Shown: one piece after another, positions 1-39,909 of the stretch
How the letters are laid out: every line of letters starts with the position of its first letter
How positions within the stretch are numbered: position 1 is the stretch's first letter
Assembly: GCA_965223425.1 (NCBI GenBank)
Contig: OZ245003.1
Location: 1,696,001-1,760,000 of the forward strand
DNA from: Nitrosopumilus sp.
Lineage (GTDB): Archaea; Thermoproteota; Nitrososphaeria; Nitrososphaerales; Nitrosopumilaceae
DNA: 64,000 bases
Direction: 5' to 3'
Notes under the pieces: generated by a model
What the model was told of the DNA's origin: nothing
The model's input: the letters and a program-made list of their open reading frames with translations, nothing else
Databases searched by the model: none
Translations under genes and position numbers: made by a program

Positions 1-48
1 GTCATGCTGATGTGCTCCCAATGAGCGAAACTGCCATTATGGCAGTCC

Positions 49-714
49 ATGGCAAAACAAATTCTCAAACAGATTGCAAAAGCAATCGCAATAACCGTGA
101 TTGTAGTGATTACGGCATCCATTGTGTGGACATTTGTTGTTCCGATGCTGCCACTGAGCCAAGTGTCAGATATTGTAGAAGAGAATGTGAAAGAGCCGTT
201 AGAGAAACTTGTTTCACAAACACCGCTTGCACCAGATGAGCAAGTCACAAATGGAACGCCAAAGAACAATGACGCCCCATCGTCATACGATGACATTGAC
301 GACCCGCCATCGGACATAGTTACCTCATATGATCCACCAGACATGGATTTTCTGAACAGTGGCACTGTAACCAAAGTCATTGACGGCGACACGATTGATA
401 TCGACAACATGCGATTCAGACTTGCTCTGATAGACACTCCTGAGAGAGGCGAGGCCGGATACAATGAGGCAAGGATGTTCCTGTTGAAGAACTGTCCCGT
501 ACAGTCGTTGGCACTGTATGATATCGACGACAAACAGAAGACGGACAAGTACGGACGATACATAGGAAAGGTATGGTGTTATGGATATCCACCTGTCGTT
601 CCTGAAAATTCCATGAACAGCAAACTTGTAAACGAGGGACATGCAGTGGTTGTCTCAACGTTTTGCAGGTCAAGCGAATATGGAAATGAGCAGTGGTTAG
701 ACCCACACTGCTAG
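49..714 (+). CDS. Membrane-anchored thermonuclease (SNase-like) family protein
   Basis: N-terminal TM helix; motifs VIDGDTI, RLALIDTPE, DKYGRYIG, LVNEGHA. Confidence 0.85.
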   Translation: MAKQILKQIAKAIAITVIVVITASIVWTFVVPMLPLSQVSDIVEENVKEPLEKLVSQTPLAPDEQVTNGTPKNNDAPSSYDDIDDPPSDIVTSYDPPDMDFLNSGTVTKVIDGDTIDIDNMRFRLALIDTPERGEAGYNEARMFLLKNCPVQSLALYDIDDKQKTDKYGRYIGKVWCYGYPPVVPENSMNSKLVNEGHAVVVSTFCRSSEYGNEQWLDPHC

Positions 715-791
715 TATTGTTCTCTTTCACATACCATCCCCCCCCTTTTTTTCTAATCAAATTTTTTGTACGGACATCTGATTATTTTTTC

Positions 792-867
792 GTGACCTGG
801 CATGTCATCCCAAATCTTGCACCAGTATGTTCAAACATACCTGACAGGCAGGCAAGTGTGGGGATGA
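792..867 (+). ncRNA. Structured intergenic motif, type A, copy 1
   Basis: GTGACCTGGCATGTCATCCC...GGGATGA; outer stem TCATCCC/GGGATGA, CTTGC/GCAAG, inner hairpin TATGT-TCAA-ACATA; preceded by T-tract. Confidence 0.65.
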
Positions 868-868
868 T

Positions 869-954
869 GGTGAGTTTACCTAGCAAGGTAAGGTGTCCGA
901 CTGATAATCGGAATGTCTGTCAGGACAGCGTGGGTTCGAATCCCACACTCACCG
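869..954 (+). tRNA. Class II (long variable arm) tRNA with GAU anticodon and G73 discriminator
   Basis: Acceptor GGTGAGT/ACTCACC-G; D-stem ACC/GGT; anticodon arm TCCGA-CTGATAA-TCGGA; variable arm TGTCT-GTCA-GGACA; T-arm GTGGG-TTCGAAT-CCCAC; no encoded CCA. Confidence 0.85.
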
Positions 955-1009
955 TAATACTCCTGCATATTAAAACATTCAGGAGAGAAATTCAAAAAAG
1001 TGAACAAAA

Positions 1010-1393
1010 ATGGGAATGTATGATGAGGTCGTAGCGGCCATAACATGTCCCTGCTGCAAGAGAAGGTATCTGGATTATGGAATCCAAACAAAGAACTTTC
1101 GGTGCGTACTCTCCAAAATATTTGAAAATGACGACACGAGGAATATTGTGGAGGAAAGGAAATCGTTTGGAAACATAAGGAACGAGACGTTCAAATGTTT
1201 TACATTCTGTGTAATGTGTTCTGCGGGAATCAATATGACAGGAGTCATATCAGAATATGTGTTTCGTGGAGTCAAGGCGGACTCGTTTAATGAGAATATA
1301 AAAAGGTCCGGAACAGATGGAATTGCAATTGATCCCTCCATCATGACAGAAAATGGAAACCATGCAGCAGAAAACGGACTGCTAAAACCCTGA
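1010..1393 (+). CDS. Cys-rich hypothetical protein (MGMYD...CPCC...QTK), copy 1
   Basis: 127 aa ORF, near-identical second copy at 2146-2529. Confidence 0.75.
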   Translation: MGMYDEVVAAITCPCCKRRYLDYGIQTKNFRCVLSKIFENDDTRNIVEERKSFGNIRNETFKCFTFCVMCSAGINMTGVISEYVFRGVKADSFNENIKRSGTDGIAIDPSIMTENGNHAAENGLLKP

Positions 1394-1403
1394 TTATTTT
1401 TTC

Positions 1404-1479
1404 GTGACCTGGCATGTCATCCCAAATCTTGCACCAGTATGTTCAAACATACCTGACAGGCAGGCAAGTGTGGGGATGA
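1404..1479 (+). ncRNA. Structured intergenic motif, type A, copy 2 (followed by a deleted cassette: tRNA 5' 20 nt joined to the 3' end of the 127-aa ORF)
   Basis: Identical to 792-867; 1481-1500 is the tRNA start, then the sequence jumps to CCGGAACAGATGG of the ORF end. Confidence 0.65.
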
Positions 1480-1596
1480 TGGTGAGTTTACCTAGCAAGG
1501 CCGGAACAGATGGAATTGCAATTGATCCCTCCATCATGACAGAAAATGGAAACCATGCAGCAGAAAACGGACTGCTAAAACCCTGATTATTTTTTC

Positions 1597-1672
1597 GTGA
1601 CCTGGCATGTCATCCCAAATCTTGCACCAGTATGTTCAAACATACCTGACAGGCAGGCAAGTGTGGGGATGA
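1597..1672 (+). ncRNA. Structured intergenic motif, type A, copy 3
   Basis: Identical to 792-867. Confidence 0.65.
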
Positions 1673-1673
1673 T

Positions 1674-1828
1674 GGTGAGTTTACCTAGCAAGGTGTCGCC
1701 CCGATGAGACGATTGCTTCTGAATTAACATCGCTGGTTCAAATCCCGCACTAACCTCCATTAGTTGTTTCGTTCAGTGTGCGAGCGTCTTAGAAGTGGAC
1801 ATCGTGGGTTCAAATCCCACACTCACCG
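1674..1828 (+). ncRNA. Expanded tRNA-like RNA (GAU loop, shortened D-arm, ~85-nt variable region containing a second T-arm-like motif), copy 1
   Basis: Same acceptor and T-arm as 869-954; internal GCTGG-TTCAAAT-CCCGC-ACTAACC; identical copy at 3384-3538. Confidence 0.6.
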
Positions 1829-1922
1829 TTACAACCCTCAATATTAGACCATTAATGAGGTAAATTCAAAAGTGAAAACCATGCAGCAGAAAACGGACTG
1901 CTAAAACCCTGATTATTTTTTC

Positions 1923-1998
1923 GTGACCTGGCATGTCATCCCAAATCTTGCACCAGTATGTTCAAACATACCTGACAGGCAGGCAAGTGTGGGGATGA
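1923..1998 (+). ncRNA. Structured intergenic motif, type A, copy 4
   Basis: Identical to 792-867. Confidence 0.65.
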
Positions 1999-2002
1999 TA
2001 AT

Positions 2003-2090
2003 GGTGAGTTTATCTAGTAAGGTAAGATGTCGCCCTGATGAGGCGATTGCTTCTGACGGAGCATCGTGGGTTCAAATCCCACACTCACCG
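2003..2090 (+). tRNA. Second class II tRNA with GAU anticodon and G73 discriminator
   Basis: Acceptor GGTGAGT/ACTCACC-G; D-stem ATC/GAT; anticodon arm TCGCC-CTGATGA-GGCGA; variable arm TGCTTC-TGAC-GGAGCA; T-arm GTGGG-TTCAAAT-CCCAC. Confidence 0.85.
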
Positions 2091-2145
2091 TAATACTCCT
2101 GCATATTAAAACATTCAGGAGAGAAATTCAAAAAAGTGAACAAAA

Positions 2146-2529
2146 ATGGGAATGTATGATGAGGTCGTAGCGACCATAACATGTCCCTGCTGCAAGAGAA
2201 GGTATCTGGATTATGGAATCCAAACAAAGAACTTTCGGTGCGTACTCTCCAAAATATTTGAAAATGACGACACGAGGAATATTGTGGAGGAGAGGAAATC
2301 GTTTGGAAACATAAGGAACGAGACGTTCAAATGTTTTACATTCTGTGTAATGTGTTCTGCGGGAATCAATATGACAGGAGTCATATCAGAATATGTGTTT
2401 CGTGGAGTCAAGGCGGACTCGTTTAATGAGAATATAAAAAGGCCCGGAACAGATGGAATTGCAATTGATCCCTCCATCATGACAGAAAATGGAAACCATG
2501 CAGCAGAAAACGGACTGCTAAAACCCTGA
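2146..2529 (+). CDS. Cys-rich hypothetical protein, copy 2
   Basis: 2 aa differences from 1010-1393. Confidence 0.75.
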   Translation: MGMYDEVVATITCPCCKRRYLDYGIQTKNFRCVLSKIFENDDTRNIVEERKSFGNIRNETFKCFTFCVMCSAGINMTGVISEYVFRGVKADSFNENIKRPGTDGIAIDPSIMTENGNHAAENGLLKP

Positions 2530-2539
2530 TTATTTTTTT

Positions 2540-2608
2540 GTGACCTGGCAATCCTTCCAAACCCGCATCAGATGAGCAATCATCCTGACAGGCAGACGGG
2601 TGTGGGAA
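2540..2608 (+). ncRNA. Structured intergenic motif, type B, copy 1
   Basis: GTGACCTGGCAATCC-TTCCAAACCCG...ATGA-GCAA-TCAT...TGACAGGCAGA-CGGGTGTGGGAA. Confidence 0.65.
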
Positions 2609-2645
2609 TGGCGCGGTGTTTGAGACATCAAAGGTAAAACATACA

Positions 2646-2975
2646 ATGAATGCAAAAGGAGCCATAACACATCTGGTAAAAAGGCCGATGGGAGTCGTCT
2701 TTACAGGAATGCTGATTTTTGGGCTGTTCCTGATGATTGGAGGTGACTCGGGCGTACCGGAAATACTGAGAATATGGCCAGTCTACGGAGTGTTTATTAT
2801 TCCTGCCATAGTAGGAATAACTATGCTGCTACTTACTGCTGATGAGGTATCCAAGATACACGGACGTTTTGACTCAGTAGAGTCAAAGCTGGACAAGCTG
2901 GACAATATAGAGTCAAAGCTGGACAGCATAGAGTCAATTCTGAAAGAGATAGCGGGATATCTAAAACCAAAGTAG
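2646..2975 (+). CDS. Small 2-TM membrane protein with C-terminal coiled coil, copy 1
   Basis: Two hydrophobic helices then heptad repeats (SKLDKLDNIESKLDSIE); paralog at 6259-6609. Confidence 0.75.
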   Translation: MNAKGAITHLVKRPMGVVFTGMLIFGLFLMIGGDSGVPEILRIWPVYGVFIIPAIVGITMLLLTADEVSKIHGRFDSVESKLDKLDNIESKLDSIESILKEIAGYLKPK

Positions 2976-3007
2976 CACACGGCAGTTCTCACACATTCAT
3001 TTTTTAT

Positions 3008-3077
3008 CTGACCTGGCAATCCTTCCAAACCCCGTATCAGATGAGCAATCATCCTGACAGGCAGACGGGTGTGGGAA
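3008..3077 (+). ncRNA. Structured intergenic motif, type B, copy 2
   Basis: Near-identical to 2540-2608. Confidence 0.65.
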
Positions 3078-3111
3078 AGGCATCAGACATTTGCGATGTC
3101 CTAGATCAAAA

Positions 3112-3276
3112 ATGAAAAACTATGAAGAAAATTTTGAAGAATGGTGTGCAGAATATGAAAACACAATGCACAGCAATGGTTCTGAAATTATGACCCGTAC
3201 GGACGGCGACATCGGAATCAAATACGTTGTCAGGAAAGACACCGACGGATGTGGCGCATACCTCATCTGGGAGTAA
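3112..3276 (+). CDS. Small acidic hypothetical protein
   Basis: 54-aa ORF filling the cassette between two motifs. Confidence 0.5.
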   Translation: MKNYEENFEEWCAEYENTMHSNGSEIMTRTDGDIGIKYVVRKDTDGCGAYLIWE

Positions 3277-3306
3277 TTACAACCTGAAAACACCAACTAT
3301 TTTTTC

Positions 3307-3382
3307 GTGACCTGGCATGTCATCCCAAATCTTGCACCAGTATGTTCAAACATACCTGACAGGCAGGCAAGTGTGGGGATGA
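3307..3382 (+). ncRNA. Structured intergenic motif, type A, copy 5
   Basis: Identical to 792-867. Confidence 0.65.
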
Positions 3383-3383
3383 T

Positions 3384-3538
3384 GGTGAGTTTACCTAGCA
3401 AGGTGTCGCCCCGATGAGACGATTGCTTCTGAATTAACATCGCTGGTTCAAATCCCGCACTAACCTCCATTAGTTGTTTCGTTCAGTGTGCGAGCGTCTT
3501 AGAAGTGGACATCGTGGGTTCAAATCCCACACTCACCG
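3384..3538 (+). ncRNA. Expanded tRNA-like RNA, copy 2
   Basis: Identical to 1674-1828. Confidence 0.6.
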
Positions 3539-3594
3539 TAATACTCCTGCATATTAAAACATTCAGGAGAAAAATTCAAAAAAAGTGATACAAA

Positions 3595-3726
3595 ATGTTC
3601 GAAGAGGCAAAGTACAAACTCAAAAGAAGCGTCTACAAAAAGACAATTTGTAGAAACTGCAAAAGGGAACGATGGGAAGGGCACCCCGAACTCAACGAAT
3701 GTGATTGCTGTCAGATAGGTCTCTGA
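3595..3726 (+). CDS. 43-aa putative Zn-finger microprotein (not in ORF track)
   Basis: MFEEAKYKLKRSVYKKTICRNCKRERWEGHPELNECDCCQIGL; same upstream leader as the 127-aa ORFs. Confidence 0.55.
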   Translation: MFEEAKYKLKRSVYKKTICRNCKRERWEGHPELNECDCCQIGL

Positions 3727-3771
3727 TTTTTCTGCAATGCCTTGTTGAAAGGTTCCAAAACCATATTTTTT

Positions 3772-3840
3772 GTGACCTGGCAATCCTTCCAAACCCGTAT
3801 CTGATGAGCAATCATCCTGACAGGCAGACGGGTGTGGGAA
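3772..3840 (+). ncRNA. Structured intergenic motif, type B, copy 3
   Basis: Near-identical to 2540-2608. Confidence 0.65.
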
Positions 3841-3974
3841 AGGCAAAAATGCTTGCGGCATTTATGAAAAAATATGCAAGAAAAAGACACAACAATCAAA
3901 ATAAGAACCGGTCTGATTCGACGACAGCAAGTCATCTTTGTTGCAATGATGGCAGTCGGGCATTCCTGATTACC

Positions 3975-4304
3975 ATGAGCCAGCTAGTGGACCAAAGACT
4001 CCTAAGCGAGGGCATAGCCTTTTTTACCATTGGATTCGTAGGAATACTAATGTCCTGGACTACAATGGATATCGGAGCTGGCATCAAGGAGGCAATACAT
4101 GAGGTCGGCCAGCAAAATCAAAGGGCAATTGCCGAAAGCAATCAAAGATTTGACAAGACTCTAAACCGCATTGCCGAATCCCAAAAAGATATTGCCGAAT
4201 CCCAAAAAGATATTGCCAAGGTGTTAGACAATGTCACAAAATCTCAGGAACGCATGCACAAATCCCAAGACGACATCAAAGACACGATAAAAAACAAAGA
4301 CTAG
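3975..4304 (+). CDS. TM plus coiled-coil protein
   Basis: One TM helix followed by IAESQKD heptads. Confidence 0.7.
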   Translation: MSQLVDQRLLSEGIAFFTIGFVGILMSWTTMDIGAGIKEAIHEVGQQNQRAIAESNQRFDKTLNRIAESQKDIAESQKDIAKVLDNVTKSQERMHKSQDDIKDTIKNKD

Positions 4305-4331
4305 GTTCTTCAAACATCCAAACATTTTTTC

Positions 4332-4407
4332 GTGACTGGGTCATACAGTCCAAACCCGTTTTACCTTTGGCGCAAGCCGCAGGCCGACCCAGCGGACGGG
4401 TGTGGGA
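4332..4407 (+). ncRNA. Structured intergenic motif, divergent type C
   Basis: CTGGGTC/GACCCAG pairing, TCCA-A-ACCCG/CGGGT-G-TGGG stem, TGGC-GCAA-GCCG hairpin. Confidence 0.65.
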
Positions 4408-4808
4408 TATAATGAATTCTCATATGAGAATAAGCGTCCAGATGAAAGACGATACTTTCATAGCAATATAACGTCTGTTCTGGCACGTAACATCTGCCAG
4501 AAATACGACCAAACGACAAAGGTTTGGGAGTGATCCTGGTTGCTATAAAAACGATAGCAACATTCACAGAAATGCGACCAAACGACAAAAGCATGCAATG
4601 CCGACAGCACATGGCATCCTTTCCCAGTACGACACGGTATGTCAAATAACAGGCAGACTATGGATTATTGCGCTTGATGATAATCCACCATCCAGATATT
4701 TTTTAGCATAGCCGAGGCTATGGGCGGATGACGACATCAGCTGGGGATATGATGCCAGGCGCTTCAGACATCGTGCATGTGTTTTGTGAAAAAAAGGAGT
4801 GAAACCAA

Positions 4809-6119
4809 ATGGTTTTAAAAAATACAATCAATACAAGTACAAGTATTAAAAATGTACAAAATCAGTCAGTAGGCAAGAAAGGCAGGATCTCAAACAGGGA
4901 TCTCATAAGCATCAGCAGAAATCTGAGTGATCTTGCAAACGGATACATCACGTACAAAACGTACAGGGACGGACGTACCGGCTTCTTCCGTAACAGCACA
5001 ATGATAGCCGTCCTGGAAGAAGGAATGGTAACAACACTGTTTGGCGGTGAGCCAAGGCAGGCAAGCGTGGCATCATTGCTGGATGGCGCATCCCGCAACG
5101 AAGGCATCAAAAAAGAAATTGCACAATGTGCAAGATTTGCCGCAGACTACACCCCCGCAGACGAGGTGGATTCTGAGAAGGACAAGGCCCAGATGCACAG
5201 GGCAGACTCCAGAAGGCCGACAATCAAGGACCGACTCGTGCTGTACTTTGCCGGAATGTCAGATGCCAGCATCCCATGCATGGTGCACGGCAAGGACAAA
5301 TTCAAGATTCTTGTGCCACACAAAGGTACGACAAGAGTTTTTGAAATCAACCGGTCAGAATTCGGCGGAATATCAAAACTGGTAAGAATGGTGCTCAGAA
5401 GGAACCACCAAAAACGCAAATTCACGGCACCTACAGACGAGGTCAAGTTTGCAATAAGTGACGCCGCACGCCTCCCAACGAGAAGAAGCGCCACGTCACA
5501 TGTCACACAGGGCCGCGTGGAACTCTCCGTGATCAGCCCCAGAGAAGAGGTGATAGAGAAAACAACAACGGTACTGGCATCTCTGATAAAATGCGAGGGG
5601 TTTGAAAGAATCCTATCTGAGGAGACAGAGTCATACCAGGCAGAGGAAGTCATCTATGAAAGATTCGGACCAGAAAAACTGCCAACCATCCCGGTGTGGT
5701 TTCCTACCGATGTCACTGCCAACGCAAAAATGGCACACGGAATGGAACGCATCCACGGAACGGAACCTGTAAGAAAGGTATCAAAACACACCACCCGCAA
5801 ATTCTATGGCGCCAAAGAGTCTGAGCTTGAGGATATTGAAGCAAGCAAGAGACACACATATGAGCAAATCCACGCTGCAATGAAATACATAAGGGAGAAC
5901 GGATACTGTACTTGCAATGAGAAGTGCATGTGTGCCGATTTGCCATACGAGGAGAACACCCTGAACATCGCAGAGGTGGCAGACATCTGCTCAGGCATGA
6001 AGGTCGAAGATCTGAGTCTTCTCATGCAGACAATGAAAAGCTGCAATGTCTTGGGGCCAGAGTATTCAGTTGTCTGCTCTGCTGCCGCACGGCTCAGATC
6101 ACAGAACAGTGCGAAATAG
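4809..6119 (+). CDS. Hypothetical protein (436 aa, C-terminal Cys cluster)
   Basis: Long ORF preceded by GGAGTG; no family recognised. Confidence 0.75.
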   Translation: MVLKNTINTSTSIKNVQNQSVGKKGRISNRDLISISRNLSDLANGYITYKTYRDGRTGFFRNSTMIAVLEEGMVTTLFGGEPRQASVASLLDGASRNEGIKKEIAQCARFAADYTPADEVDSEKDKAQMHRADSRRPTIKDRLVLYFAGMSDASIPCMVHGKDKFKILVPHKGTTRVFEINRSEFGGISKLVRMVLRRNHQKRKFTAPTDEVKFAISDAARLPTRRSATSHVTQGRVELSVISPREEVIEKTTTVLASLIKCEGFERILSEETESYQAEEVIYERFGPEKLPTIPVWFPTDVTANAKMAHGMERIHGTEPVRKVSKHTTRKFYGAKESELEDIEASKRHTYEQIHAAMKYIRENGYCTCNEKCMCADLPYEENTLNIAEVADICSGMKVEDLSLLMQTMKSCNVLGPEYSVVCSAAARLRSQNSAK

Positions 6120-6151
6120 CACACGGCAGTTCTCACACATTCATTTTTTAT

Positions 6152-6221
6152 CTGACCTGGCAATCCTTCCAAACCCCGTATCAGATGAGCAATCATCCTG
6201 ACAGGCAGACGGGTGTGGGAA
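6152..6221 (+). ncRNA. Structured intergenic motif, type B, copy 4
   Basis: Identical to 3008-3077. Confidence 0.65.
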
Positions 6222-6258
6222 AGGCGCGGTGTTTGAGACATCAAAGGTAAAACATACA

Positions 6259-6609
6259 ATGAATGCAAAGGGAGCCATAACACATCTGGTAAAAAGGCCG
6301 ATGGGAGTCGTCTTTACAGGAATGCTGATTTTTGGGCTGTTCCTGATGATTGGAGGTGACTCGGGCGTACCGGAAATACTGAGAATATGGCCAGTCTACG
6401 GAGTGTTTATTATTCCTGCCATAGTAGGAATAACTATGCTGCTACTTACTGCTGATGAGGTATCCAAGATACACGGACGTTTTGACTCAGTAGAGTCCAG
6501 TTTGGGTAGAATAGAGTCAAAGTTGGGTGGAATAGATACAAAGCTGGACAAGCTGGACAGCATAGAGTCAATCCTGAAAGAGATAGCGGGATATCTAAAA
6601 CCAAAGTAG
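6259..6609 (+). CDS. Small 2-TM coiled-coil membrane protein, copy 2
   Basis: Identical to 2646-2975 except in the heptad region. Confidence 0.75.
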   Translation: MNAKGAITHLVKRPMGVVFTGMLIFGLFLMIGGDSGVPEILRIWPVYGVFIIPAIVGITMLLLTADEVSKIHGRFDSVESSLGRIESKLGGIDTKLDKLDSIESILKEIAGYLKPK

Positions 6610-6641
6610 CACACGGCAGTTCTCACACATTCATTTTTTAT

Positions 6642-6711
6642 CTGACCTGGCAATCCTTCCAAACCCCGTATCAGATGAGCAATCATCCTGACAGGCAGAC
6701 GGGTGTGGGAA
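6642..6711 (+). ncRNA. Structured intergenic motif, type B, copy 5
   Basis: Identical to 3008-3077. Confidence 0.65.
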
Positions 6712-6939
6712 AGGCGCGGTGTTTGAGACACCAGTTTTTTACTCAGAAAAATTTCACAAATAGCAAGAGTGCACAGTGCACACAATTTTGTCATGCAAGT
6801 GATGATCAAATACATTCATCTGAATGAAAAACATCTACGGAATTTTTTCCGTCAAAAACAAAAAACACCGTCTGGGACATGTTCCCGGAAAAAAACCAAA
6901 GAATGTTCTTTGGAATAATCAACAAAGGAGGTTGATAAA

Positions 6940-35122: not shown

Positions 35123-39279
<4,157 letters not shown>

Positions 39280-39280
<1 letters not shown>

Positions 39281-39909
39281 TGCAGGACAATATCACCGAC
39301 TTTGCCCTTGAAGAGTACAGGGAACACTACAAGAACGATAAAATAGAAAAAAACGACATCTTCTTCTACATCTACGGCATTTTACACCACGGCGGGTACA
39401 GGAAGAAATATGCAAACAACCTGACACGTGAGCTGCCACACATTCCCATGGCACCGGACTTTTTAGCATTTTCAAAAATTGGAAAAGAATTGGCAGATCT
39501 ACATTTATCATATGAGACATGCAAGAGATATGATTTGGGAAAACCAAAATCAGAATTTGGCAGATACGCAAAGATGTCGTTTGCAAAAAAGAAGGAAAAC
39601 GGCAGGCAGGTAACTGACACTACAACCCTGAGGATCAACGGGATAACCGTCTTTGAGAATATCCCTGATGTCAAGTACAGGGTAAACGGCAGGACGCCAT
39701 TGGAATGGGCCATAGACCGCTACAGGAGAACAGTAGACAAGGACAGCGGCATAGTAAATGACGCAACAGACATTGACGTCATACCGCTCATTGAAAGGCT
39801 CATACATGTAGGGGTGGAATCAGACAGGCTGGTATCCGGACTTCCAAAGGAGTTTGAGCCGAAAAACTGGGACCCGAAAAAAACAGGAATGGACAAGTTC
39901 ATTGGTTGA
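39280..39909 (+). CDS. Type ISP RM C-terminal domain encoded as a separate ORF
   Basis: DNITD, DIFFYIYGILH, LPHIP, GKELADLHLSYE, Y.VNGRTPLEW. Confidence 0.8.

What the first reader, a model, noticed from the sequence alone, without database searches (positions are those of the whole stretch)
792..6711. Eleven copies of an unrecognised ~70-76 nt pseudoknotted motif punctuating a cassette array
Seen: copies at 792, 1404, 1597, 1923, 3307 (type A), 2540, 3008, 3772, 6152, 6642 (type B) and 4332 (type C), each right after a T-tract. The three types share one topology despite different sequence. A 5' segment after (G/C)TGA pairs into the loop of the main stem (CCTGGCA/TGACAGG in A and B; CTGGGTC/GACCCAG in C). 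The main stem has a constant CCA-A-A/T-G-TGG core with an A.G mismatch and covaries elsewhere (CTTGC/GCAAG vs CCCG/CGGG). An inner hairpin (TATGT/ACATA, ATGA/TCAT, TGGC/GCCG) has a GCAA or TCAA loop and a conserved bulged C, and a C-R-G linker follows. G.T wobbles favour the + strand. Every type A copy sits 1-4 nt before a tRNA-like gene. Inference: a new structured RNA (self-cleaving or processing element, stabiliser) or an ssDNA recognition hairpin. The strand order resembles HDV-like ribozymes but the HDV core details are absent.
Basis: partly seen in the sequence, partly recalled or inferred. Interest (0 to 1): 0.85.

Follow-up and report, generated by a model that had tools for sequence, protein, structure and literature searches.

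The report
New pseudoknotted RNA leader family
The eleven repeats are real copies of an undescribed, widely repeated folded RNA element that sits in front of small genes and tRNAs on mobile DNA of ammonia-oxidising archaea, next to hammerhead ribozymes, and it may be an RNA-cutting or RNA-processing signal.

Summary
Confirmed and extended. The genome holds 15 intact copies.

A covariance model found the motif in 24 further genomes of the same archaeal order. It found none in 131 genomes of other families of the phylum. No Rfam family matches it.

Across 140 hits the fold is supported by covariation. It comprises:
- a 7-bp pseudoknot helix P1;
- a long helix P2 with an invariant CAAA/UGUG core holding an A.G mismatch;
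- an outer P2 extension;
- a variable hairpin P3, often with a GNRA loop.

The host is an ammonia oxidiser. The array lies in a putative integrative conjugative element.

A T-tract lies 0-3 nt upstream in 121 of 139 copies. The motif directly precedes tRNAs in three lineages, and elsewhere small ORFs or a C/D-box-like RNA. Hammerhead ribozymes that cut 1-2 nt before start codons share the same arrays.

Best reading: a new cis-acting structured RNA, most likely an RNA-processing module and possibly self-cleaving. Function is untested.

The parts
783..872 (+). Motif copy, type A (class I): T-tract 785-790, UGA 793-795, P1 5' strand 796-802. Followed by a tRNA.
   Evidence: 86.3 bits with model R1
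1395..1484 (+). Motif copy, type A. Followed by a 21-nt tRNA 5' fragment and then a tandem duplication.
1588..1677 (+). Motif copy, type A. Followed by a sub-threshold tRNA-like sequence at 1674-1756.
1914..2003 (+). Motif copy, type A. Followed by the tRNA at 2002-2091.
2531..2616 (+). Motif copy, type B (class I). Anatomy: T-tract 2533-2539; UGA 2541-2543; P1 5' 2544-2550; P2 extension 5' 2553-2556; P2 core 2557-2561; P2 distal 2562-2565; P3 hairpin 2571-2584; C 2585; P1 3' 2586-2592; linker CAGA 2593-2596; P2 distal 3' 2597-2600; P2 core 3' 2601-2605; tail 2606-2611.
2999..3085 (+). Motif copy, type B.
3298..3387 (+). Motif copy, type A. Followed by a sub-threshold tRNA-like sequence at 3384-3466.
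3763..3848 (+). Motif copy, type B. An ATG at 3849 follows the tail.
4323..4416 (+). Motif copy, type C (class II). Followed about 400 nt later by the 436-aa ORF 4809-6119.
6143..6229 (+). Motif copy, type B.
6633..6719 (+). Motif copy, type B. Last of the array, with no adjacent ORF downstream.
868..955 (+). tRNA (anticodon GAU, long variable arm) directly 3' of a type A copy.
2002..2091 (+). tRNA (anticodon GAU) directly 3' of a type A copy.
1..47 (+). Hammerhead-like element. Its predicted cut lies 1 nt before the ATG of the SNase-like gene. The core reads CUGAUGU instead of CUGAUGA.
49..714 (+). SNase-like gene that precedes the motif array. The same order is seen in at least four related genomes.

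Best explanation
The repeats belong to a previously undescribed family of structured RNA of about 85 nt, read from the + strand.

The fold, shown by covariation:
- UGA, then a 7-nt strand that pairs (P1) with a segment inside the loop closed by a long helix;
- that helix consists of an outer extension, an invariant CAAA/UGUG core with an A.G mismatch, and a covarying distal part;
- a variable hairpin P3 sits in the loop;
- a nearly invariant C follows the P1 3' strand.

The element marks the 5' edge of each cassette (small ORF, tRNA or C/D-box-like RNA) in arrays on putative integrative conjugative elements of ammonia-oxidising archaea.

Inferred mechanism: it acts in cis on the transcript as an RNA-processing module. 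It would separate each cassette RNA from what lies upstream of it, just after the U-tract, and so define the cassette's 5' end. The most likely means is self-cleavage near UGA|C, in a geometry like that of HDV-type ribozymes. It would work alongside the hammerheads and RNase P sites that cut the same transcripts.

What is shown: the family, its fold, its distribution and its contexts. What is inferred: that it is RNA rather than ssDNA, and that it cleaves. I put the claim 'a real, new structured RNA family' at about 0.85. The confidence given below is for the processing or self-cleaving mechanism.
For: Family and fold:
- 15 intact copies in this genome.
- Genus: 11 of 150 other genomes with E at most 4.4e-4.
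- Family: 11 of 150 other genomes, in four further genera.
- Order: two genomes of two other families.
- P1: 83.6% of cells paired against 64.4% in shuffles, 5 of 7 pairs changed on both sides, 0 of 500 shuffles as high, slid controls at most 32%.
- P2 and P3: 88.1% paired, 9 of 14 pairs changed on both sides. Repeated on other genera with 87.5% and 8 of 14.
- Outer helix: mean length 4.49 against 2.90 +/- 0.19 when tails are swapped.

RNA rather than DNA:
- 34 of 111 P3 loops are GNRA.
- CAUGU/AUGUG pairs only through G.U on the + strand.
- The motif has the orientation of the neighbouring ORFs in the maps made.

Processing context:
- A script found 14 hammerhead candidates in the same elements, each cutting 1-2 nt before an ATG or GTG.
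- One passes the Rfam threshold, 35.4 against 34 bits. Another scores 27.5 bits.
- The motif model ends 0-2 nt before a tRNA in 8 units of G310 and in G403 and G355. This window shows the same arrangement.
- In G169 the order is motif, C/D-box-like RNA, hammerhead, ORF.
- A run of at least 5 T ends 0-3 nt before UGA in 121 of 139 copies.
- The strand order P1-P2-P3-P1'-P2' and a conserved C right after P1' recall HDV-type ribozymes.
Against: - No cleavage or transcript-end data exist.
- No HDV-type or other ribozyme model matches.
- The first P1 nucleotide is C in 72 of 76 sequences, not G.
- P3 loops are too short to form a P1.1.
- The nested fold is not thermodynamically unusual.
- In four G310 units a canonical ATATAAAG box lies 32 nt upstream of UGA. 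In two copies without a T-tract, a TATA-like box lies about 23-30 nt upstream. There the RNA may simply start at the motif, so 5' cleavage would serve little purpose.
- Where a hammerhead or RNase P site lies downstream, the motif is removed from the mature RNA anyway. A role as a 5' cap of the mRNA then fails in those cassettes.
- The T-tract with its A/C-rich flank scores as promoter-like with a host BRE/TATA matrix in 30 of 113 distinct upstream sequences.
Confidence: 0.35

Rival explanations
1. A non-catalytic structured leader or stand-alone small RNA. The fold binds a protein of the element or the host, or a small ligand. It either regulates the cassette RNA or is itself the product. Downstream RNase P or hammerhead cuts would release it with a defined 3' end.
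For: - Conserved unpaired nucleotides (UGA, C, C-R-G-R, the A.G mismatch) could form a binding pocket.
- The motif is followed at 0-2 nt by tRNAs or tRNA-like sequences, some of them degenerate. In G169 a hammerhead follows further downstream. These would cut it free.
- High copy number in arrays fits a dosage role: 23 copies in G310 and 14 in G335.
- A canonical promoter is placed to start transcription at the motif in G310 units.
Against: - No partner is known.
- The fixed T-tract just upstream is not explained.
- Class I copies that run straight into an ORF have no downstream cut site.
Confidence: 0.3
2. Mainly a cassette promoter. The A/C-rich stretch plus the T-tract would act as BRE/TATA, and transcription would start at the invariant CAAA about 20 nt downstream. 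The downstream part would be an ordinary leader.
For: - A matrix built from 46 host tRNA promoters peaks at -13 to -9 on the motif's upstream region, with 30 of 113 sequences at 5 bits or more.
- The spacing from the T-tract to CAAA is constant.
- The element precedes every kind of gene: ORF, tRNA and C/D-like RNA.
- The conjugative element encodes its own TBP-like protein.
Against: - P1 and the outer helix covary, and their 5' strands lie upstream of that predicted start. They must therefore be part of a folding strand.
- Other genes in the same array use canonical TATTAAAA boxes.
- The matrix is A/T-rich, so a conserved T-run scores well whatever its function.
Confidence: 0.12
3. A single-stranded DNA element of the conjugative element: a folded signal on the transferred strand for priming or early transcription, or a site at which cassettes recombine.
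For: - The array lies in a putative conjugative element with TraG/VirD4-like and VirB4/HerA-like genes.
- Repeated folded promoters (Frpo) precede leading-region genes of bacterial plasmids (PMC11541004, passages read).
- Cassettes are duplicated and deleted between copies. A contig of run X6 joins the copy at 3008 to the copy at 3772, skipping 763 nt with 43 shared letters.
- C.A cells at two positions would be G.T on the other strand.
Against: - GNRA loops are enriched.
- No promoter box lies within a helix, and the T-tract is unpaired.
- No integrase or recombinase was found among the 20 neighbouring proteins scanned.
- The observed junction is what plain homologous recombination between 85-nt repeats would give.
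- The motif abuts mature RNA 5' ends.
Confidence: 0.1

Closest known systems
HDV-like ribozymes, including the minimal and tRNA-associated theta ribozymes of gut phages (PMC10879173, passages read)
   Same: - A pseudoknot with strand order P1-P2-P3-P1'-P2'.
- A 7-bp P1 at the 5' edge.
- A conserved C followed by purines between P1' and P2'.
- Size of about 60-90 nt.
- Residence on mobile DNA and close association with tRNA genes.
   Different: - No P1.1, no L3 and no P4.
- The first P1 base is C, not G.
- A conserved UGA lies upstream.
- An invariant CAAA/UGUG core with an A.G mismatch.
- It lies 5' of tRNAs, whereas theta ribozymes lie at the tRNA 3' end.
- No Rfam HDV-type model matches.
- Cleavage is untested.
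- The theta descriptor is in a supplementary figure that I could not see.
Type I hammerhead ribozymes (Rfam RF00163)
   Same: They occupy the same arrays, in intergenic positions on the same strand. They show that these transcripts are cut by ribozymes.
   Different: The motif lacks the CUGANGA ... GAAA core and the three-way junction.
PeSL mobile regulatory cassettes of T4-type phages
   Same: A repeated promoter-or-terminator-plus-stem-loop unit flanks small ORFs in a hyperplastic region, and recombination between the repeats shuffles the ORFs.
   Different: Bacterial, a simple stem-loop, and no conserved pseudoknot core.
Frpo single-strand DNA promoters in plasmid leading regions (PMC11541004, passages read)
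   Same: Repeated folded elements in front of co-oriented small genes on conjugative DNA.
   Different: Frpo carries the promoter boxes inside a long DNA stem on the transferred template strand. Here the T-tract is unpaired and the fold has RNA hallmarks.
Exoribonuclease-resistant RNAs (recalled from memory)
   Same: A compact pseudoknot in which the 5' end pairs into a closed loop, placed at the 5' edge of the RNA it precedes.
   Different: No sequence or model similarity was tested. In several cassettes the motif is cut away from the mature RNA.

Membership tests
HDV-like / theta ribozymes | Nested pseudoknot with strand order P1-P2-P3-P1'-P2' | tested here: met
   Covariation supports P1 and P2 and P3.
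HDV-like / theta ribozymes | P1.1 formed between loop L3 and the bases just 3' of P1 (feature recalled) | tested here: not met
   P3 loops are mostly 3-4 nt and 34 of 111 are GNRA. A C...G pair flanking P1' was looked for and is not consistent.
HDV-like / theta ribozymes | Catalytic C at the first position of J4/2 (PMC10879173) | tested here: inconclusive
   A C follows the P1 3' strand in nearly all parsed variants. There is no P4, and activity is unknown.
HDV-like / theta ribozymes | G at the first P1 position next to the cleavage site (recalled) | tested here: not met
   The first pair is C-G in 72 and U.G in 4 of 76 sequences.
HDV-like / theta ribozymes | Match to curated covariance models | tested here: not met
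   No HDV-type hit at E up to 10 in 700-6900, nor at E up to 1 or 0.05 in related loci.
HDV-like / theta ribozymes | Self-scission | not testable with these tools
   Needs an in-vitro assay.
Theta ribozymes | Cleavage site within about 5 nt of a tRNA, at its 3' trailer | tested here: not met
   Here the tRNA follows the 3' end of the motif.
Integron attC sites | Single imperfect hairpin with conserved core sites at both ends and a nearby integron integrase (features recalled) | tested here: not met
   The fold is a pseudoknot. No integrase was found among 20 proteins scanned with Pfam.
Frpo-type ssDNA promoters | Promoter boxes lie inside the folded stem of the transferred template strand | tested here: not met
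   The T-tract is outside every helix. Which strand is transferred is unknown.
Any Rfam 15 family | Score at or near a family's gathering threshold | tested here: not met
   Only tRNA and hammerhead hits, none of them on the motif.

The most novel reading that the evidence does not exclude
The motif is a new class of self-cleaving ribozyme, the first to be centred on archaeal mobile elements. Together with hammerheads set 1-2 nt before start codons and tRNA-like RNase P sites, it would cut long transcripts of the conjugative element into separate leaderless mRNAs, tRNAs and small RNAs. A cassette bounded by a hammerhead at its 5' end and this motif at its 3' end would carry a 5'-OH and a 2',3'-cyclic phosphate. 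Those are the ends that the archaeal ligase RtcB joins, so circular cassette RNAs become possible.
Probability: 0.2. Interest if true: 0.92.

Novelty: new variant of a known kind. Interest (0 to 1): 0.8.

Why it matters
Structured RNA families with strong comparative support are rare in archaea, and very few self-cleaving ribozymes are known there.

This family has 140 detected copies in 25 genomes, a conserved core and a clear genomic logic. It marks cassette boundaries on conjugative elements of ammonia-oxidising archaea, beside hammerheads that appear to make leaderless mRNAs.

If it cleaves, it is a new ribozyme class or a radically pared-down HDV-type fold. It would also show how a mobile element insulates shuffled cassettes at the RNA level. 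If it does not cleave, it is still a new regulatory or protein-binding RNA of an ecologically important group. Either outcome can be tested with a simple in-vitro transcription assay.

Tried and rejected
- Known RNA family: rejected.
- C/D-box sRNA, kink-turn, hammerhead core, frameshift signal, Shine-Dalgarno sequestration: considered while reading the sequence and dropped. The boxes or spacings are absent or not conserved. The 16S 3' end reads GATCACCTCCT and the motif tail is not consistently complementary to it.
- Fixed distance to a start codon: true only for one gene family. Over all copies the distance to the next ORF of at least 40 aa ranges from 2 to 377 nt.
- Pattern scans of IMG/VR: 14 and 30 loci returned, none with the fold.
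- Strict pattern on JGI metagenomes: 0 hits.
- Strict pattern on 40 relatives: no true hit. The covariance model was needed.
- The 436-aa cassette protein in 200 genomes of the order: not found with this query.
- The 762-aa protein against phage records: no match.
- Expression: no RNA holder listed.
- Laying contigs of four DNA runs showed only breaks at the repeats and one repeat-to-repeat deletion.
- A P1.1-like pair between the base before P1' and the linker: not consistent.
- Strand choice from wobble pairs: ambiguous.
- Literature: three searches and the thaumarchaeal mobile-element paper (PMC6563490, passages read) gave no description of this motif. One search for natural hammerheads that make leaderless mRNAs in archaea listed only in-vitro uses (listing only).

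Full report
**Observation.** A regular-expression scan finds the motif 11 times in the window. On 10 distinct sequences from this genome, 9 of 16 P1/P2 pairs change on both sides. No shuffle out of 500 reaches the observed covariation score, and sliding the partner strand drops pairing from 77.5% to 42% or less. The nested part of the fold is not unusually stable (z from -1.2 to 0 for six copies). The evidence is therefore comparative.

**The family is much larger than the window.**
- The genome is 2.64 Mb in two contigs. It holds 15 intact copies in three places, plus decayed ones.
- Strict sequence patterns found nothing true in 40 relatives, in IMG/VR or in JGI metagenomes.
- A covariance model built from five local sequences (R1) was more sensitive. 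It found clear matches (E at most 4.4e-4) in 11 of 150 other genomes of the genus, with up to 23 copies per genome. Twelve further genomes had only weak hits with E between 0.1 and 1, which I treat as noise.
- A second model, built from 100 aligned hits (R2), found the motif in 11 of 150 other genomes of the family, in four further genera.
- It also found the motif in two genomes of two other families of the order. By eye both keep P1 and P2; the outer helix was seen only in the G118 copy.
- It found nothing in the 131 genomes of other families of the phylum that were sampled.
- The host encodes archaeal AmoA, so these are ammonia-oxidising archaea.

**Structure.** I fetched the arrays and aligned 100 and 40 hits.
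- *P1* (7 bp) joins the strand right after a nearly invariant UGA to a segment inside the main loop. The test used 76 distinct sequences; 2 truncated ones of 78 were left out. 83.6% of cells pair against 64.4% in shuffles, 5 of 7 pairs change on both sides, and slid controls give at most 32%. Class I reads CCUGRCA/UGACAGG with a tolerated central mismatch. Class II reads CUGAGYC/GACUCAG and variants such as CUGGGUC/GACCCAG, CCGAGUC/GACUCGG and CCAAGGC/GACUUGG.
- *P2* has a core CAAA/UGUG that never varies. Its A.G mismatch is present in 78 of 78 sequences. The distal 4-5 pairs covary freely.
- *P3* is a hairpin of 3-10 bp in which all four modelled pairs covary. Its loops are GNRA in 34 of 111 predicted cases.
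The best helix averages 4.49 bp against 2.90 +/- 0.19 when tails are exchanged between families. It includes CACAU/AUGUG, CAUGU/AUGUG and CAUGU/AUAUG, which stay paired only on the + strand.
- P2 and P3 covariation was repeated on 39 distinct sequences from other genera and families: 87.5% paired, 8 of 14 pairs changed on both sides, 0 of 500 shuffles as high.
- Caveats: the sequences are related, the alignments from the model lean towards its structure, and the structure was first derived from some of these sequences.

**Not a known family.** Rfam 15 gives only tRNA at its thresholds. Nothing relevant appears at E up to 10 across 700-6900. The motif copies in related loci get no hit.

**Context.**
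- The DNA around the array encodes TraG/VirD4-like and VirB4/HerA-like ATPases, an actin-like ParM, a TBP-like protein and restriction systems. This fits the putative integrative conjugative elements described for Thaumarchaeota (PMC6563490, passages read).
- In at least four related genomes, as here, an SNase-like gene is followed by the motif array.
- Of 139 parsed copies, 103 are class I and 36 are class II. A run of at least five T lies within 14 nt upstream of UGA in 123 of them, and its end is 0-3 nt from UGA in 121 of those 123.
- In the ORF maps made, the motif has the orientation of the ORFs around it.

**What follows the motif varies.**
- In one gene family the ATG or GTG comes 3-5 nt after the tail.
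- Class II copies usually follow that ORF and precede a 330-436-aa ORF by 100-400 nt.
- In G310, eight tandem units consist of the motif followed at 0-2 nt by a tRNA that passes the Rfam threshold (42-45 bits).
- In G403 and G355 a class II copy abuts a tRNA-Asp.
- In this window, type A abuts two intact tRNAs, two sub-threshold tRNA-like sequences and one fragment.
- In G169 the motif is followed by what reads as a C/D-box sRNA, then a hammerhead, then an ORF.

**Hammerheads in the same arrays.** A scan prompted by a sub-threshold Rfam hit (27.5 bits) found 14 type I hammerhead candidates in the fetched loci.
- Thirteen have a complete core. One passes the Rfam threshold (35.4 against 34 bits).
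- In every case the predicted cut lies 1-2 nt before an ATG or GTG.
- The window begins with one of them (1-47), just before the SNase-like gene. Its core reads CUGAUGU and Rfam gives only 16 bits.
- These elements thus appear to cut long transcripts with ribozymes, leaving mRNAs with almost no leader.

**RNA or DNA, and where does the RNA start?**
- GNRA loops, G.U-dependent helices and the constant orientation with genes favour an RNA of the + strand.
- Wobble counts alone are ambiguous, because C.A cells are common at P1 position 6 and at the first P2 pair.
- The T-tract with its A/C-rich flank resembles host promoters. A matrix learned from 46 host tRNA genes, where it sits at -37 to -33, peaks at -13 to -9 before UGA and reaches 5 bits in 30 of 113 distinct upstream sequences. 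That would put a start site at the invariant CAAA.
- Against this, the 5' strands of P1 and of the outer helix lie upstream of that point and covary with their partners. So the folding molecule must begin at or before UGA.
- In four G310 units a canonical ATATAAAG box lies 32 nt before UGA. Two copies in divergent gene contexts lack the T-tract but have a TATA-like box about 23-30 nt before UGA. Both observations place a start near the 5' edge of the motif.
- Other ORFs in this array use TATTAAAA boxes.
- I conclude that the whole motif is transcribed. The T-tract is either a weak terminator of the upstream unit or an element close to the start. Its exact role is open.

**Mechanism.** I commit, at about 0.35, to a cis-acting RNA-processing module that defines the 5' edge of each cassette RNA, most likely by self-cleavage near UGA|C. 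The reasons are:
- the strand order and the conserved C next to the first P1 pair recall HDV-type ribozymes;
- a core of conserved unpaired bases;
- many copies on mobile DNA;
- position at cassette boundaries after a U-tract;
- the company of hammerheads and tRNAs.

The first rival (0.3) is a non-catalytic leader or stand-alone small RNA that binds a protein or ligand and is set free by the downstream RNase P or hammerhead cut. A mainly promoter role (0.12) and a single-stranded DNA role in transfer or cassette recombination (0.1) are less likely, for the reasons given above. A contig of run X6 that joins two copies and skips 763 nt shows that the repeats do mediate cassette loss. Plain homologous recombination explains that.

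**Comparison with known systems.** It works most like an HDV-type ribozyme or a ribozyme insulator, but it fails several defining features:
- no P1.1 or L3;
- C instead of G at the first P1 position;
- no model match;
- the opposite polarity towards tRNAs from theta ribozymes (PMC10879173, passages read).

The element is not an attC site or an Frpo promoter by the features tested.

**Novelty.** Three literature searches gave no description of this motif. I rate it a new variant of a known kind: a structured cis-acting RNA with an HDV-like pseudoknot topology. There is a real chance that it is a new ribozyme class.

Noticed in passing
window 1-47; related loci L110, L115, L119, L123, L142, L144, L148: Type I hammerhead ribozyme candidates whose predicted cut lies 1-2 nt before the start codon of the next ORF, so the product would be a nearly leaderless mRNA. 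A script found 14. One passes the Rfam threshold (L148 1796-1844, 35.4 bits). The copy in the window has a core variant, CUGAUGU, and scores only 16 bits. One literature search listed only in-vitro uses of this trick.
   Followed up: partly
L109 17883-19361 and L110 611-1388 (genome G310): Eight tandem units of about 225 nt. Each is one motif copy followed at 0-2 nt by a tRNA of about 102 nt that ARAGORN missed but Rfam scores at 42-45 bits.
   Followed up: partly
L148 about 1880-1950 and 620-690; G000 C1 about 1695870-1695985: Sequences that read as C/D-box sRNAs (GAUGAUGA ... CUGA ... AUGAUGA ... CUGA with a terminal stem). They lie between a motif copy and a hammerhead in G169, and just upstream of the window's hammerhead. 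Identified by eye only.
   Followed up: no
window 868-955, 1674-1828, 2002-2091, 3384-3538: The tRNAs carried by the element have a long variable arm and the anticodon GAU. Two further copies are composite or degenerate, each with a second T-arm and acceptor end after an insert.
   Followed up: no
window 1308-1500 and 1501-1693; 1010-1393 and 2146-2529; 2646-2975 and 6249-6609: Tandem and dispersed duplications of whole cassettes, and a deletion derivative at 1870-1925. The array is being reshuffled.
   Followed up: partly
window 3957: All four laid DNA runs carry an extra G after 3957. The ORF that starts at 3849 may therefore be frameshifted in this assembly.
   Followed up: no
window 3039-3803: A contig of run X6 joins the motif copy at 3008 to the copy at 3772 and skips 763 nt, with 43 letters shared by both sides.
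   Followed up: no
L086 (G000 C1 1676001-1696000) and window 35402-39909: Genes typical of a conjugative element and of defence: TraG/VirD4-like and VirB4/HerA-like ATPases, a TBP-like protein, a ParM-like actin, an MmeI-type enzyme and a type ISP restriction enzyme that is split into two ORFs.
   Followed up: partly
G000 C1 802134-802218, 1427416-1427499, 1852595-1852682, 998209-998247: Decayed copies of the class II motif with a conserved upstream flank. One of them still shows two compensatory changes in P1.
   Followed up: partly
L142 2903-2985 and 5583-5665 (genome G349): In two copies a G+C-rich hairpin replaces the T-tract. One of them lies 38 nt after a hammerhead cut site.
   Followed up: no
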